Shown in pieces: positions 28,282 through 32,791 of a stretch of 64,000 nucleotides of DNA. The notes beneath the pieces were generated by a model that did no database searches, was not told where the DNA came from, and saw only the letters and a program-made list of their open reading frames with translations. This DNA is from Candidatus Latescibacterota bacterium (GTDB taxonomy: Bacteria; Latescibacterota; UBA2968; GCA-2709665). The stretch covers positions 4,736,001-4,800,000 of the forward strand of contig OZ242358.1 in assembly GCA_965208835.1 (NCBI GenBank), given 5' to 3'. The position numbers and the translations under genes are program-made. Each line of letters begins with the position of its first letter. Positions within the stretch are counted from its first letter, which is position 1.

Positions 28282-30087
28282 CTACTTCCCTTTTTCGCCA
28301 GCGCTTCCACCCCCGGCGAAAATGACGCCGTTTGGTTTCCTGTTCACGTTCAGTACGACGATCTGACTTCCCGACAGCACATAGTCCGTTGGAATCCGTG
28401 CTCTCTGCACGACTGTCTGCCGAACCTGTTTTACCGCATCGGACGAGCGGGAAAATTGAAGCGCCGAGAGCACCGACGACGGCAGCCTTGACACCTCCCG
28501 TCCCTCGATCGTCACGCCCTGAGCCCCGGACAGCAGTTCAACAACCATTTCGTTGTTCCGGCCGGCGCGCCCCAGCAGGCGGATGAGATGATCCAGGTTT
28601 CTGGCGCTGTATTCACCCGGCGCTCGCTTGGCCTCCTGTTTCACGTGGGCGGATGCGCTGGAAACCCTGAGAACCAGCCGGCCGCCCGGCGTTTGATTCG
28701 GAATGACCATGGCTTCCTCGACCTGCCGCAGTCCTCCCCAGTAGGGCCGCAATGAAACCGTGACACGCACCGTATCGCCCGGCTGGAACGATGTCTTCTG
28801 CAATCCGATAGCCTGGATGTGGGCGGTGTGCGCCCTTTCGGCTTCCACATCCAGGTCGAAGGTGACCCGCTCGATCCTGATCGGCTGGAACGGATTCCGG
28901 ATCAGGTTCGCGAACGGCGTGGTGACCCCCAGTACGGCACTACCCAGCCCCAATGCGCCGGCATAGACGTTCTCGGCCTCCACCGATGGACGTCCATTCA
29001 GGTCGATTCTTACACGGGATTTCACCGTCACCTCGCCCGTCAGCTTCTCGGACGAAACCATCGCGCTGAAGACCGCGATCCGCAATAGAGTCGGACTGAG
29101 GTCGCGGTCTCGCAAGACCTCCATCCGGAACTGCGCTTCCTTGCCCGGCGAACGCAAGTTGATCTGTACGGGCATCATGTCAACTTCGAGGCCGATGGTG
29201 CCGGCGATGCCGGGGGCTCGATCCTGAACGATGGCGCCCATGGTCCGCCCGGCCACTCCCAGCTTGAACGACGCAGACTGGCTGGGCAACACTTCGTGAA
29301 TATAGGCTCCCGTCATCGGAAACGCAGTCGCACCGCCAAAAATCATGGAATGCCCGAATCCGACCACCCGATCCCCATCCCGATGGGTCAGCGTTCCGAT
29401 TCCCGTCACGCTGAGGTCGCCCCGTACCAGCTGCACGCCAAGGGCGGCGCCAGGTTCGAACCCACCCGCGGGCAGGCCGGGATCCACGCCGCCACCCCCC
29501 TGGACCGGCGTCCATCCTAAATCCGAAAACGCCTGTCGAAAATCTTCGACCGCCTGCGGCGCAAAACCGGAAATCACGATCGGAAGGCTGATCGGCGTCA
29601 ACTCCGCCGCATCCATACCCGCGAGATCGATCAGTCGCCGCGCGCCGGCTTTCGTCAGGCGGGCCGTCGAGCTGACGCCTTCAGGTGCTGCCGGCCGGTT
29701 GAACAGATCAACCATTGCGGCAATCGGCGTAATGCCGGCGATGGGTTCCTTGGCAAAAGCGCCAACCCGATACGATACCGCGCCGATCAGCTTGCCATCG
29801 ACGTAAACCGGACTGCCGCTCATCCCCAGGATCACTCCCGTATTGGACAGGGGGCCGCCGGACAGCCGGGCCAGAATCAGATCGCTACGTGGACCGATCG
29901 CATTGTGCAATACACCCAGAATCTCGACCTGAAACGTATCAATTCGCGTTCCCTGGAAGACCGTCCGGCCGATGCCCTGCATCCCTCTGCGGAGTTCTTC
30001 GACGGGCATTGTCTCCACGGCCGCCCGGGCATTGCCGGCAACAGCGCACCACAACACAGCGGGCAGCGATATCTTCAGCAGACGCAT
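28282..30087 (-). CDS. SpoIVB-like peptidase S55 domain protein (secreted)
   Basis: Signal peptide MRLLKISL..ARA, G.G.TVFQG, GMSGSPVY..GKLIGAV, GFGH. Confidence 0.85.
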   Translation of the reverse strand: MRLLKISLPAVLWCAVAGNARAAVETMPVEELRRGMQGIGRTVFQGTRIDTFQVEILGVLHNAIGPRSDLILARLSGGPLSNTGVILGMSGSPVYVDGKLIGAVSYRVGAFAKEPIAGITPIAAMVDLFNRPAAPEGVSSTARLTKAGARRLIDLAGMDAAELTPISLPIVISGFAPQAVEDFRQAFSDLGWTPVQGGGGVDPGLPAGGFEPGAALGVQLVRGDLSVTGIGTLTHRDGDRVVGFGHSMIFGGATAFPMTGAYIHEVLPSQSASFKLGVAGRTMGAIVQDRAPGIAGTIGLEVDMMPVQINLRSPGKEAQFRMEVLRDRDLSPTLLRIAVFSAMVSSEKLTGEVTVKSRVRIDLNGRPSVEAENVYAGALGLGSAVLGVTTPFANLIRNPFQPIRIERVTFDLDVEAERAHTAHIQAIGLQKTSFQPGDTVRVTVSLRPYWGGLRQVEEAMVIPNQTPGGRLVLRVSSASAHVKQEAKRAPGEYSARNLDHLIRLLGRAGRNNEMVVELLSGAQGVTIEGREVSRLPSSVLSALQFSRSSDAVKQVRQTVVQRARIPTDYVLSGSQIVVLNVNRKPNGVIFAGGGSAGEKGK

Positions 30088-30289
30088 CACGACGCACACC
30101 CTTTCTCGTCGATCGGTACGGGAGCCACGAAATCTACTGCGCGCCTTCGGAAAAGTCAAGCGCTGCAACGGCCTAAGTAATTGCAAATTAACATCCGAAC
30201 CCTGTTTTGTTTCCCCAGATATAATACCCGTTTTCGCAATATGGAACAAGCCCCTTGTGCAAATCGGATCTTGTCCTTATCATAACCCA

Positions 30290-30760
30290 ATGCAAATCTT
30301 GCTGCTGGCGGTTGGCAAATGCCGAAAGCCGTATCTGAGAGTTGGTGTCTCGGACTACATCGATCGCATCCGGAGATACGCCAGCCTGGAGCATATCGAA
30401 GTCAAAGAGGAACCGACACCGGGGAGGGGTACCGCTCCGAACGGCCTCTGCAAGGAAGGCGAACGTATTCTCCGACGGGTTCCGCAGAACGCATCTATAA
30501 TTGCTCTGGACCCGGCCGGGGAGTCCTGCAGTTCCGATGGCCTCGCCCGGCGCATCTCCAGAATCGGTCTGGAAGGAACTGGTCGAATCGCGTTTGTCGT
30601 TGGCGGTCCATCCGGCCTTGCCGCCCGGGTTATCCGGCGCGCTGACTGGCGCCTTTCGCTTTCTTCCCTTACCTTTCCGCACGAGATCGCCCGTCTGGTT
30701 CTCCTGGAACAGATCTACAGGGCGTTTACCATCATGCGCGGCGAACCGTATCACAGGTAG
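30290..30760 (+). CDS. rlmH: 23S rRNA (pseudouridine1915-N3)-methyltransferase
   Basis: AVGK, FVVGGPSG, LSSLTFPHEIARLVLLEQIYRA, GEPYH. Confidence 0.95.
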   Translation: MQILLLAVGKCRKPYLRVGVSDYIDRIRRYASLEHIEVKEEPTPGRGTAPNGLCKEGERILRRVPQNASIIALDPAGESCSSDGLARRISRIGLEGTGRIAFVVGGPSGLAARVIRRADWRLSLSSLTFPHEIARLVLLEQIYRAFTIMRGEPYHR

Positions 30761-30820
30761 TCGTCGCAGCAGCCGGACCCGTAACACCGTGGCAGGCGCT
30801 CTTCCGCCGGCCGGCCGAAA

Positions 30821-31062
30821 CAAAAAAGCCCGGAAAACAGGTTCACGCGACAGCCGTGGAGAGATGATTCCGCCACTGGAATCCGGCTGCCGGGTACGTC
30901 TCCTGTTTCCGGGCTTTTTAAATGCAGTCCGAAATGTCAGGATATGCAGTTTCGGGGGAACGGAGGATATCCGAATCCGGTAACCTCGGAGAACGGCCGG
31001 AGGGGTATCGGCCCCGGGGTTCCGGAAGAAGGGTTGTCTCAATCGCCTGCCTGTTGAGAACA
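30821..31062 (-). ncRNA. candidate ~240-nt structured sRNA
   Basis: TTGACT-N17-TATCTT promoter (31096-31068), several hairpins, long terminal hairpin followed by U6; no credible ORF. Confidence 0.55.
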
Positions 31063-31438
31063 CTTGAAAGATAAGCCAATGTTTTTATTCAGTCAAGGGG
31101 AAGTTTGCCCTAATATACTGTTTTACATTATCTTGTGGTCCATCGGTCGAGTCATACCTTATATAGATTTCCGTGCGGCGGTCCATCGGAATCAGCATCT
31201 CCCCCCATTCGCCGCGCGTGGTTTTGCGCATACGCTGGACGAAGTCGGCCTTCCCGCCGCTTCCGGTACCGTCACAGCCCGGAAAGAAACCATATCGACC
31301 CGTTGACCCCGGAAGGTGGGCATTCCAACCTCACGCAATGACAGATACTTGTGGACAGAATTCCTGATCAGCGCTATCTTCAACACGCCTTTACACAGAC
31401 TGAGCTTCCACGTTTATCATCGTTGACGCAATCGACCC

Positions 31439-32791
31439 ATGCCGCATACGCTTACCATAACACAGGCGGCGGAGGAAATCCGGTCGGGCCGTCTTTCTCC
31501 GCTGGAGCTTCTTCAAGCCTGTCTCTCACAGATCGACGCCCTGGACAGCCGCCTGCATGCCTGGGTCCACGTCGACAGGGAAGGCGCCGAGCAACGCGCA
31601 CGGGTTCTTCAGGAGGAACTTGCCCGCGGCCGGTACCGTGGTCCCCTTCATGGGATTCCAATCGGGATAAAGGACATCATCGACGTGGAGGGCCTGCCCA
31701 CCGCCGCCGGCGCACGGCATCTCTACAACCGGGTTCCGGATGAAGATGCAGCGGTGGTCGCCCGATTGCGCAGGTCCGGCGCGGTCATCCACGGCAAAAC
31801 GGTTACCACGCCATTTGCGTGTTTCGATCCGGCGGAAACCAGGAACCCCTGGAACCCCGATCATACGCCCGGCGGCTCCAGCAGCGGTTCGGCCGCCGCC
31901 GTCGCGGCGCGCATGTGTCCCGCCGCCCTGGGGTCCCAGACCGGCGGATCCATCAGCAGACCCGCGGCGTATTGCGGCCTCGTGGGTCTGAAACCCACCT
32001 TCGGCAGAATCAGCCTGCGGGGGATCGTGCCCGTCAGTTACGAACTGGATCATCCCGGTCCGATCACACGTTCAGCCGCCGACGCGGCCGTCATTCTCCG
32101 GAGCCTGGCCGGTCGGGATCCGATGGATCCGCTGAGCGCCGACGTTCCTGTTGATACGTACCGCGTCGAACCGCTTACCCGTCCCCCCCGCGTCGGCATC
32201 ATTCGCACGTACTTCCCCGATAACGCCGACGAAACCATGCGCGCGGCGACGGACGATGCCGTTGAGCGCCTCGCCTTTGCGGGCGCCGAGTTCACCGGTG
32301 TGCAAATGCCAGGATCCTTTGCGGATTTACACGAGAATCACGCGCTGCTGCTCGCGGTCGGCGCGGCGAACGTCCACGGGGAACGATACGACGCCCGCCG
32401 GGACGCCTTCCCGCCCGGCCTGTGCGAGATCATCGAAAGGGGACGCGCCGCCGGAGCCGTCGATTACGCCAGGGCGCGACGGCACCAGATTGCGTTTAAG
32501 TCGGAGGTCCTCGCTGCCTTCGAGGGCGTGGACGTACTGCTGACCCCTGCAACGCCGACGCCGGCGCCATCGGGTCTGACATCCACCGGCAGTCCTGACT
32601 TCAACAGCCCCTGGAGCTACGCCGGTCTTCCCACGACCGTCCTGCCAGCCGCCTGTACGTCCGACGGACTGCCCGCCGCCGTCCAACTCGTCGCTCGACC
32701 CTTCGCCGAACTCCGCCTGCTCTCTGTCTCCGCCTGGTGCGAAACCCGCCTTGCGTGGAACCGCGCCCCATCGATTCTCTCCGCCGATTAA
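31439..32791 (+). CDS. amidase signature family protein
   Basis: PLHGIPIGIKD, PGGSSSGSA, GSQTGGSISRPA. Confidence 0.92.
   Translation: MPHTLTITQAAEEIRSGRLSPLELLQACLSQIDALDSRLHAWVHVDREGAEQRARVLQEELARGRYRGPLHGIPIGIKDIIDVEGLPTAAGARHLYNRVPDEDAAVVARLRRSGAVIHGKTVTTPFACFDPAETRNPWNPDHTPGGSSSGSAAAVAARMCPAALGSQTGGSISRPAAYCGLVGLKPTFGRISLRGIVPVSYELDHPGPITRSAADAAVILRSLAGRDPMDPLSADVPVDTYRVEPLTRPPRVGIIRTYFPDNADETMRAATDDAVERLAFAGAEFTGVQMPGSFADLHENHALLLAVGAANVHGERYDARRDAFPPGLCEIIERGRAAGAVDYARARRHQIAFKSEVLAAFEGVDVLLTPATPTPAPSGLTSTGSPDFNSPWSYAGLPTTVLPAACTSDGLPAAVQLVARPFAELRLLSVSAWCETRLAWNRAPSILSAD

What the first reader, a model, noticed from the sequence alone, without database searches (positions are those of the whole stretch)
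30821..31096. Candidate ~240-nt sRNA with multiple anti-Shine-Dalgarno loops
Seen (minus strand): TTGACT-N17-TATCTT promoter, then hairpins whose loops or linkers carry CCCUUCUUCC, ACCCCUCC, AUCCUCC, CAUAUCCU and CAUCUCUCC. It ends in a ~90-nt branched hairpin (GCCCGGAAACAGG...CCTGTTTTCCGGGC) plus U6 that can also terminate rlmH. Known: C-rich anti-SD loops are used by S. aureus RsaE/RNAIII and alphaproteobacterial CcsR RNAs. Inference: a trans-acting translational repressor. If transcribed from the plus strand instead, the same motifs would be GGA loops (CsrB-like).
Basis: partly seen in the sequence, partly recalled or inferred. Interest (0 to 1): 0.7.

Follow-up and report, generated by a model that had tools for sequence, protein, structure and literature searches.

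The report
Conserved two-part RNA beside rlmH
This is a probably real, uncatalogued 240-base non-coding RNA gene kept by almost all genomes searched in one order of uncultured bacteria; its front half resembles the promoter and C-rich leader of a surface-protein gene, hinting that it is a decoy for an RNA-binding protein and not only a blocker of ribosome-binding sites.

Summary
This is a single-copy minus-strand RNA gene (about 31061 to 30822), convergent on rlmH, with no Rfam match. Its 87-nt 3' rod occurs in 49 of 52 relatives in one Ca. Latescibacterota order and in 0 of 79 other genomes of the class. The stems covary. All 52 distinct copies have a sigma70-type promoter; 48 of 51 have G at +1. 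Expression rests on one RNA contig.

The "five anti-SD loops" are overstated. What is conserved is one CUCUCC bulge (51 of 51) and about three CCCC runs. No conserved target emerged in 642 orthologue pairs.

New here: in 11 of 53 genomes a twin of the promoter plus CCCC-hairpin leader precedes a secreted-protein gene. Best reading: protein-binding decoy (0.42), ahead of an RsaE/LhrC-like pairing repressor (0.33). No binding protein was identified.

The parts
31091..31096 (-). -35 hexamer TTGACT
   Evidence: TTGAC-N18-TAnnnT lies upstream of 52 of 52 distinct rods that have at least 450 nt of upstream DNA
31072..31086 (-). Conserved promoter spacer (A-tract, then AAACA(A/T)-TGGC-TTA) overlapping the -10 start; candidate IHF-type or other operator site
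   Evidence: AAAAACnnnGGC in 50 of 52; 36 of 51 match a relaxed IHF consensus, while the window's own copy has one further mismatch; consensus from PMC8942017 passages; four HU/IHF-family genes in the genome. Binding is inferred.
31068..31073 (-). -10 hexamer TATCTT
   Evidence: varies as TAnnnT: TATCTT 37, TATTTT 7, TAACTT 3, TATTAT 2, TATATT 1, TACTAT 1 of 51
30822..31061 (-). Predicted non-coding RNA, about 240 nt (227-358 nt in relatives)
   Evidence: G seven bases after the -10 box in 48 of 51, pyrimidine before it in 46 of 51; fold z -4.15; a 185-nt RNA-library contig at 30856-31040. Ends are inferred, not mapped.
30920..31061 (-). 5' module: variable hairpins and C/U-rich linkers with CCCC runs; resembles the leader of a secreted-protein mRNA found at a second locus in relatives
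   Evidence: CCCC runs 3.2 per RNA against 0.96 in shuffles; at about +20-37, +49-66 and +93-130 in 27, 46 and 49 of 51; twin leaders
30995..31013 (-). Inner hairpin with the AUACCCCUC loop (the best conserved CCCC site)
30953..30968 (-). C/U-rich linker with the third CCCC run
30828..30914 (-). 3' module: 87-nt rod (closing stem P1, internal loop, stems P2 and P3) with a near-invariant core; probable two-way terminator
   Evidence: models R1 and R2; 11 of 23 pairs with two-sided changes, 0 of 500 shuffles as high
30857..30865 (-). One-sided 9-nt bulge AUCUCUCCA; CUCUCC in every copy; complementary to GGAGAG, and to GGAGG with one G-U
   Evidence: CUCUCC in 51 of 51, but it was part of the search pattern; it is also invariant in the 30 blast-found copies; opening energy 0.02 kcal/mol
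30822..30827 (-). U6 tract after the rod (weaker in many relatives of the second family)
30290..30760 (+). rlmH-like SPOUT methyltransferase, convergent neighbour; not required for the RNA
   Evidence: Pfam PF02590; NCBIfam RlmH models matched below their cut-offs; missing from the locus in 2 of 20 loci that keep the RNA
28282..30087 (-). SpoIVB/S55-domain secreted protein gene, the stable downstream neighbour; has its own conserved promoter
   Evidence: PF05580; found in 19 of 20 loci; promoter-like TTGTTC-N17-TATAAT or TTGAC-type site before it
31439..32791 (+). Amidase gene, divergent upstream neighbour; this neighbour varies between relatives
   Evidence: PF01425; other genes sit here in relatives

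Best explanation
A stand-alone, two-module non-coding RNA that most likely works by binding a protein. SHOWN by comparison: it has its own conserved sigma70-type promoter, a variable 5' half that exposes about three CCCC runs at fixed distances from the start, and a sequence-conserved 87-nt rod that ends the transcript. In 11 genomes the same promoter and the same kind of CCCC-hairpin leader also stand in front of a secreted CARDB- or NHL-repeat protein gene. INFERRED: the CCCC loops are binding sites for a factor that reads them in mRNA leaders (an unknown C-loop-binding regulator, or Rho, a cold-shock protein or a KH-type protein). The free RNA is a co-induced, terminated copy of such a leader that titrates this factor, the CsrB/CrcZ logic with a different motif. 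The rod gives termination and stability and probably a second specific contact through its invariant helix and bulge. The promoter spacer may be an IHF-type site that ties expression to growth phase.
For: Twin promoter at a second locus in 11 of 53 genomes, confirmed by reading 11 loci. A CCCC hairpin loop in the first 150 nt: 7 of 8 twin leaders and 18 of 21 RNA 5' halves, against 7 of 482 other promoter-like sites in this genome; 2 of 3 further twins. Twin CCCC runs fall in the same three position windows in 6, 5 and 4 of 8. One twin leader matches an RNA from another genus at 22 of 24 bases, a score no control reached. A repeated short motif shown in loops at set spacing is the design of protein-titrating RNAs; a mRNA 5' UTR that mimics CsrB is described for fimA (PMC13501541 passages). 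Stem bases around the bulge are invariant without covariation, which suits protein recognition. No conserved pairing target was found.
Against: No binding protein was identified: Hfq, CsrA, RRM, KhpA/B (above cut-off) and ProQ were not found in this 97.8%-complete genome. The twin locus was not found in this genome or, by pattern, in the two largest genera (0 of 15 and 0 of 21), which still keep the RNA. The 11 twins are orthologues, so they are not independent. The controls come from another genome with a different base composition. Only 2 of 8 twins beat the controls on best local score. The twin could be a sibling sRNA inside a 5' UTR, or a chance by-product of an old duplication. The CUCUCC bulge fits SD pairing well. 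The negative target test had limited power.
Confidence: 0.42

Rival explanations
1. Hfq-independent, multi-seed base-pairing repressor of the RsaE/LhrC type. The UCCCC loops and the CUCUCC bulge pair with G-rich ribosome-binding sites and block initiation; the twin leader is then a sibling copy embedded in a 5' UTR.
For: UCCCC in 50 of 51 copies and CUCUCC in 51 of 51; the bulge has mean unpaired probability above 0.6 in 42 of 51. The organism uses SD sites: GGAG before 559 of 2231 long ORFs, against 5% expected. Hfq not found, as fits RsaE (PMC2790875 abstract) and LhrC with its three redundant CU-rich sites (PMC4132741 abstract). Single-genome predictions reach -18 kcal/mol over start regions.
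Against: CCUCC occurs in only 20 of 51. The strongest predicted seed, the linker at about +95-109, varies between relatives. Shared GGAGAG sites in 642 orthologue pairs: 1 seen, 0.9 expected. Joint energy ranks were not better than permutations for any of three seeds. The lexA site, best for the bulge here, is kept in 0 of 30 relatives.
Confidence: 0.33
2. The 5' half is a cis-acting control leader (a Rho-loading/attenuation or antitermination element, as in the twin mRNA) that gates how much of the downstream part is made. The effector is the 87-nt rod, released by processing or termination, acting through its bulge.
For: The 5' half is free in length and sequence (37-56% identity, against 61-76% for the rod) but C-rich and G-poor (mean C/G 1.53; unpaired G 9%). 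It occupies the same place before the rod as the twin leader does before a coding sequence. Rho is encoded and its own leader is C/U-rich. This explains why the RNA survives loss of the twin.
Against: Rho sites need no fixed hairpin loops, yet CCCC loops sit at set positions. The one informative RNA contig spans both halves.
Confidence: 0.15
3. Not a separate gene: the rlmH terminator or 3' UTR, or a leader or antisense read-through for the S55 operon.
For: The rod has an A-run on its 5' side in most relatives and abuts the rlmH stop codon in some. The S55 gene lies downstream on the same strand in 19 of 20 loci. Minus-strand U-tails are weak in the second family.
Against: The RNA and its promoter persist where rlmH is missing from the locus (2 of 20). 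S55 has its own conserved promoter. A terminator does not need an invariant internal core or a dedicated promoter 240 nt away.
Confidence: 0.05
4. Plus-strand CsrB-like RNA with GGA loops.
For: The plus strand also folds well (z -3.24) and carries GGA motifs.
Against: CsrA not found. The conserved promoter and +1 point to the minus strand. The rod is more stable on the minus strand in 43 of 51, with internal G-U pairs.
Confidence: 0.03
5. A divergent housekeeping RNA (6S-like).
For: The Rfam 6S model finds nothing in this genome, and the RNA is near-universal in the order.
Against: SRP, RNase P and tmRNA are found elsewhere. A 162-nt 6S-shaped candidate lies between a zapA-like gene and rny. 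The RNA's two ends do not pair into a rod with a central bubble.
Confidence: 0.03

Closest known systems
RsaE/RoxS and LhrC (C-rich-motif, Hfq-independent pairing sRNAs of Firmicutes)
   Same: Several exposed UCCC-type motifs in loops and linkers; own promoter and terminator; no Hfq needed; wide conservation within a lineage.
   Different: No Rfam or sequence match; about twice as long; ends in an 87-nt rod with an invariant bulge; no conserved target found; its 5' half has a twin as an mRNA leader.
CcsR / 'cuckoo' RNAs of Alphaproteobacteria
   Same: Repeated C-rich motifs in hairpin loops with variable stems.
   Different: Cuckoo RNAs have 2-4 adjacent hairpins each with CCUCCUCCC (PMC4615179 abstract). 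Here the loops carry CCCC, and CCUCC occurs in 20 of 51 copies.
CsrB/CsrC, CrcZ and the fimA 5' UTR (protein-titrating RNAs)
   Same: Many copies of one short motif shown in loops; the same motif occurs in an mRNA leader (inferred logic).
   Different: The motif is CCCC, not GGA or CA-rich; CsrA and Hfq were not found; the partner protein is unknown.

Membership tests
RsaE/RoxS/LhrC-type C-rich pairing sRNA | Conserved unpaired UCCC-type motif(s) | tested here: met
   UCCCC in 50 of 51; accessible CCCC in 51 of 51
RsaE/RoxS/LhrC-type C-rich pairing sRNA | Homology to the Rfam families | tested here: not met
   no match at gathering score or at E up to 10
RsaE/RoxS/LhrC-type C-rich pairing sRNA | Conserved pairing to G-rich ribosome-binding sites of target mRNAs | tested here: inconclusive
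   no signal in 642 orthologue pairs from two genomes; limited power
RsaE/RoxS/LhrC-type C-rich pairing sRNA | Blocks 30S initiation complex formation | not testable with these tools
   needs toeprinting or reporters
Cuckoo/CcsR | 2-4 adjacent hairpins, each loop CCUCCUCCC | tested here: not met
   loops carry CCCC; CCUCC in 20 of 51; no Rfam match
CsrB/RsmZ | GGA motifs exposed in loops of the transcribed strand | tested here: not met
   0.27 accessible GGA per RNA on the promoter strand
CsrB/RsmZ | CsrA/RsmA encoded by the host | tested here: not met
   PF02599 not found in the 97.8%-complete genome
Protein-titrating RNA (general kind) | Repeated motif shared with mRNA leader(s) | tested here: met
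   CCCC hairpins in 7 of 8 twin leaders against 7 of 482 controls; in relatives only, not in this genome
Protein-titrating RNA (general kind) | A cognate RNA-binding protein is bound and sequestered | not testable with these tools
   known chaperones not found; partner unknown
6S RNA | 5' and 3' ends pair into a rod with a central bubble; Rfam RF00013 | tested here: not met
   a better candidate lies elsewhere
SRP RNA / RNase P RNA / tmRNA | Match to the family model at this locus | tested here: not met
   each is found elsewhere in the genome
Repeat or mobile element | Multiple dispersed copies | tested here: not met
   single copy here; one locus per genome in relatives; no viral match

The most novel reading that the evidence does not exclude
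An undescribed post-transcriptional system built like Csr/Rsm but reading CCCC hairpin loops. An unknown protein controls C-loop leaders such as that of a large surface-protein mRNA, and this RNA arose by duplicating that gene's promoter and leader and capping the copy with a conserved rod. It would act as a co-induced decoy, possibly with a second, anti-SD function in the rod's bulge.
Probability: 0.3. Interest if true: 0.78.

Novelty: new variant of a known kind. Interest (0 to 1): 0.58.

Why it matters
My library searches found no paper describing a regulatory RNA in this lineage, and Hfq, CsrA, ProQ and RRM proteins were not found in this genome. An RNA kept in nearly every genome of an order whose rlmH proteins are only about 45% identical is likely a core regulator. 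The twin locus gives a rare snapshot of how a regulatory RNA can arise from a gene's promoter and leader. It also provides a ready-made reporter: the twin leader can be used to test whether C-rich loops, routinely read as anti-Shine-Dalgarno seeds, are sometimes protein-binding sites. A CCCC-loop-binding regulator would be a new class of bacterial RNA-binding protein.

Tried and rejected
Rfam at gathering score over the whole window and at E up to 10 over 30700-31450 gave only 3 chance hits with E 5.9-6.5.

Homologues outside the order were not found: R1 in 0 of 102 genomes of 12 other families, R2 in 0 of 79, the promoter pattern in 0 of 115. In the sister family, rlmH loci hold no such RNA: the best R1 hits in 24 loci were plain terminators, and most of the 22 downstream stretches read are coding sequence. 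Viral contigs gave 0 matches for the core and 0 for the promoter.

A hidden peptide was rejected. The window copy has no SD-led ORF of 8 codons or more on either strand; 9 of 51 copies have one on the RNA strand and 24 of 51 on the other, and they are not one family. The ATG inside the promoter spacer is followed by a stop in 3 of 51 (TAACTT).

lexA as a target was rejected. Long complements of the conserved core in this genome are many and scattered, and rRNA gives only 7-8-nt matches.

A regulon for the spacer motif in this genome was not found. The best other hits lie in a repeated intergenic element or in coding sequence, and one related promoter precedes a secreted-protein gene without a C-rich leader. 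Five further motif sites in relatives were not twins: two are tRNA flanks, two lack CCCC, and one is the main RNA cut by a contig end.

A pseudoknot between the P3 loop and the bulge is possible in some genera, but the loop shrinks to 3-4 nt in others. A likeness of P2 and the bulge to 16S helix 45 and its anti-SD tail was noticed but rests on a few bases and was not tested.

In RNA runs X2, X4 and X9 the contigs come from diverged relatives and run into rlmH (X2 also into the amidase gene), so they say nothing about a discrete transcript. The lack of flanking cover in X1 is not proof either. Eleven RNA runs with small shares were listed and only three of them were laid.

The target comparison covered 2.4 of 4.7 Mb of one relative; the rest of that genome was not examined.

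Full report
OBSERVATION. On the minus strand, TTGACT (31096-31091) and TATCTT (31073-31068) are 17 nt apart. The 241-nt stretch 31061-30821 folds at z = -4.15, with 0 of 200 shuffles as stable. The terminal element is an unbranched 87-nt rod, not a branched hairpin. It lies between a convergent rlmH-like gene (30290-30760) and a divergent amidase gene. Rfam gives nothing at gathering score in the window and only 3 chance hits at E up to 10. The closest rlmH relatives are titled Ca. Latescibacterota or Gemmatimonadota MAGs.

IT IS A CONSERVED GENE. Blastn found it in 31 of 41 genomes (own included), with two anchors: the promoter and the rod. A covariance model of the rod hit 18 of 18 and 28 of 30 genomes of the order's two families and 0 of 102 in 12 other families. 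A broader model hit 20 of 21, 29 of 31, 0 of 76 and 0 of 3; one miss is a copy cut by a contig end. It is single-copy here. A metagenome pattern scan gave 15 hits, 14 of them beside rlmH and/or the S55 gene and one chance match. Viral contigs gave none. On 38 distinct rods, 94.5% of cells pair and 11 of 23 pairs change on both sides (0 of 500 shuffles; slid controls 33-53% paired). That alignment was fitted to the model and kin are not independent (the MAFFT alignment gave 5 of 23, with 116 of 500 shuffles as high).

PROMOTER AND STRAND. All 52 distinct rods with 450 nt upstream have TTGAC-N18-TAnnnT, 50 of them with the spacer AAAAACnnnGGC. Among 51 distinct full-length copies, selected by a pattern that included the promoter, the -10 box varies as TAnnnT, the spacer is always 17 nt, and the seventh base after it is G in 48. 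That places the start near 31061; lengths run from 227 to 358 nt. The rod is more stable on the minus strand in 43 of 51 copies.

INDEPENDENCE AND EXPRESSION. The upstream neighbour varies. rlmH is missing from 2 of 20 loci that keep the RNA, and S55 has its own promoter, so the RNA is not merely rlmH's terminator or the S55 leader. Expression evidence is weak: in one sponge metatranscriptome a single 185-nt contig, 100% identical at depth 2.4, covers 30856-31040 and nothing else in 29700-32100. Three other runs hold contigs of relatives that run into neighbouring genes. Contigs show neither strand nor ends.

WHAT IT IS NOT. SRP, RNase P and tmRNA lie elsewhere. The 6S model finds nothing, but a 6S-shaped 162-nt candidate sits between a zapA-like gene and rny (no Rfam support; the zapA label is my recall). 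CsrA, Hfq, RRM, ProQ and above-cut-off KhpA/B were not found in this 97.8%-complete genome. There is no conserved small ORF.

WHICH MOTIFS MATTER. Two things are conserved. First, CUCUCC in a one-sided bulge inside near-invariant helices; it was part of my pattern, but it is also invariant in the 30 blast-found copies. Second, CCCC runs in the 5' half: 3.2 per RNA against 0.96 in shuffles, at about +20-37, +49-66 and +93-130 in 27, 46 and 49 of 51. The organism uses SD sites (GGAG before 559 of 2231 long ORFs, 5% expected), so the bulge could pair with them.

TARGET TESTS WERE NEGATIVE. Single-genome predictions on my own gene calls are dominated by the variable linker. The best bulge target, lexA, keeps that site in 0 of 30 relatives. 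Against 2.4 of 4.7 Mb of a second-family genome, 642 orthologue pairs shared GGAGAG once (0.9 expected). GGGG was shared 15 times against 6.4 expected, the same fold as the GGAGG control (74 against 29). Joint energy ranks for three seeds were matched by 87%, 25% and 98.5% of permutations. Power is limited: two genomes, crude starts, half a genome.

THE TWIN. The promoter pattern occurs in 52 of 168 genomes of the phylum, all within the order. Several have a second copy. I read 16 such further places. Eleven are one orthologous locus, divergent from the same membrane-protein gene (no family hit on the partial sequence). There the promoter drives a leader of about 150-330 nt and, in most, a secreted CARDB- or NHL-repeat protein (one looks decayed). 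These leaders lack the rod and any Rfam match, both tested on 8 of the 11, but they carry the RNA's CCCC hairpins. A CCCC hairpin loop in the first 150 nt occurs in 7 of 8 twins and 18 of 21 RNAs, against 7 of 482 control promoter sites, and in 2 of 3 further twins. One twin matches an RNA of another genus at 22 of 24 bases; only 2 of 8 twins beat the controls on best local score, and 6 of 8 on mean score. The twin was not found in this genome or, by pattern, in the two largest genera. The spacer shared by both promoters resembles the IHF consensus WATCAANNNNTTR (PMC8942017, passages). 36 of 51 copies match a relaxed form, similar sites flank 4-5 of 48 tRNAs, and four HU/IHF-family genes are present. 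The invariant GGC is not explained by that consensus.

MECHANISM. The RNA is promoter + C-loop leader + rod, where the twin is promoter + C-loop leader + coding sequence. The simplest reading is that the loops are read by a protein in both places, and that the free, terminated copy titrates it (0.42). Rivals are an RsaE/LhrC-like pairing repressor (0.33), a cis-gating leader with the rod as effector (0.15), and minor ones. The anatomy, conservation and twin are shown; every functional step is inferred. That it is a real non-coding RNA gene I put at about 0.9.

COMPARISON AND NOVELTY. It resembles RsaE (PMC2790875, abstract and outline), LhrC (PMC4132741, abstract and outline) and cuckoo RNAs (PMC4615179, abstract and outline) in C-rich loops. 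It resembles CsrB, CrcZ and the fimA leader (PMC13501541, passages) in logic. It fails the homology or motif tests for each. Searches for Latescibacter with noncoding RNA or sRNA gave 0 papers and 1 unrelated paper; the listing for rlmH with RNA-motif terms showed nothing on this element (listing only). I opened no supplements, so motif lists from comparative screens could hold it unseen, and subscription journals are not searched. The scan's notes had nothing on similar DNA, only C-rich sRNAs in other phyla. Verdict: a new family and a new variant of a known kind, interest 0.58.

Noticed in passing
G000:C1:1870521-1870682 (minus strand; within L189): A 162-nt 6S-shaped RNA candidate (closing stem, central bubble, terminal stem) between a zapA-like gene and rny; missed by Rfam.
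   Followed up: partly
L211-L240 and G000:C1:2516000-2516143: lexA promoters across the order share a palindrome of the form TG(A/C)AC-N4-GT(T/G)CA between -35 and -10, a probable LexA box for this lineage (read by eye).
   Followed up: no
window 30230-30295: rlmH appears leaderless: a TATAAT/TATACT-like box sits a few bases before its start codon in most relatives, back to back with the S55 promoter around an ACAAG-N4-CTTGT palindrome.
   Followed up: no
L362-L369, L372, L374, L375: Behind the same promoter and leader, the secreted protein is NHL-repeat type in the first family and CARDB-repeat type in the second, suggesting exchange of the coding part; some copies look frameshifted or decayed.
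   Followed up: partly
L370, L371 and 3' flanks of tRNA-Leu, tRNA-Pro and tRNA-Val in G000: IHF-consensus-like sites of the AAACAA-N4-TTA form directly after tRNA genes, often as one arm of an inverted repeat.
   Followed up: partly
G000:C1:4932920-4933340 and 5107430-5107810: Two intergenic regions share a several-hundred-base repeated element with tandem GACGTAA-like units, probably a degenerate mobile element.
   Followed up: no
G000:C1:4904641-4909988: A gene cluster that looks like a Pup-proteasome system (proteasome subunits, a Pup-like small protein, a ligase/deamidase-like gene and an ATPase); labels are my recall from the translations.
   Followed up: no
G000:C1:1868798-1870384 and 1956624-1958423: Two RNase Y paralogues in one genome.
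   Followed up: no
G000 leaders before 992482-995916, 4846622, 779038, 2225216-2226469 and 4142533: Several core genes (dnaE-, smc-, gyrB-, rho- and sigma-factor-like; labels recalled from the translations) have C/U-rich, G-poor leaders, possible Rho or C-loop-protein sites.
   Followed up: partly
L165-L188: In the sister family, rlmH usually ends head-on against a conserved protein gene that looks like a D-Ala-D-Ala carboxypeptidase (recalled label), with no RNA between.
   Followed up: partly
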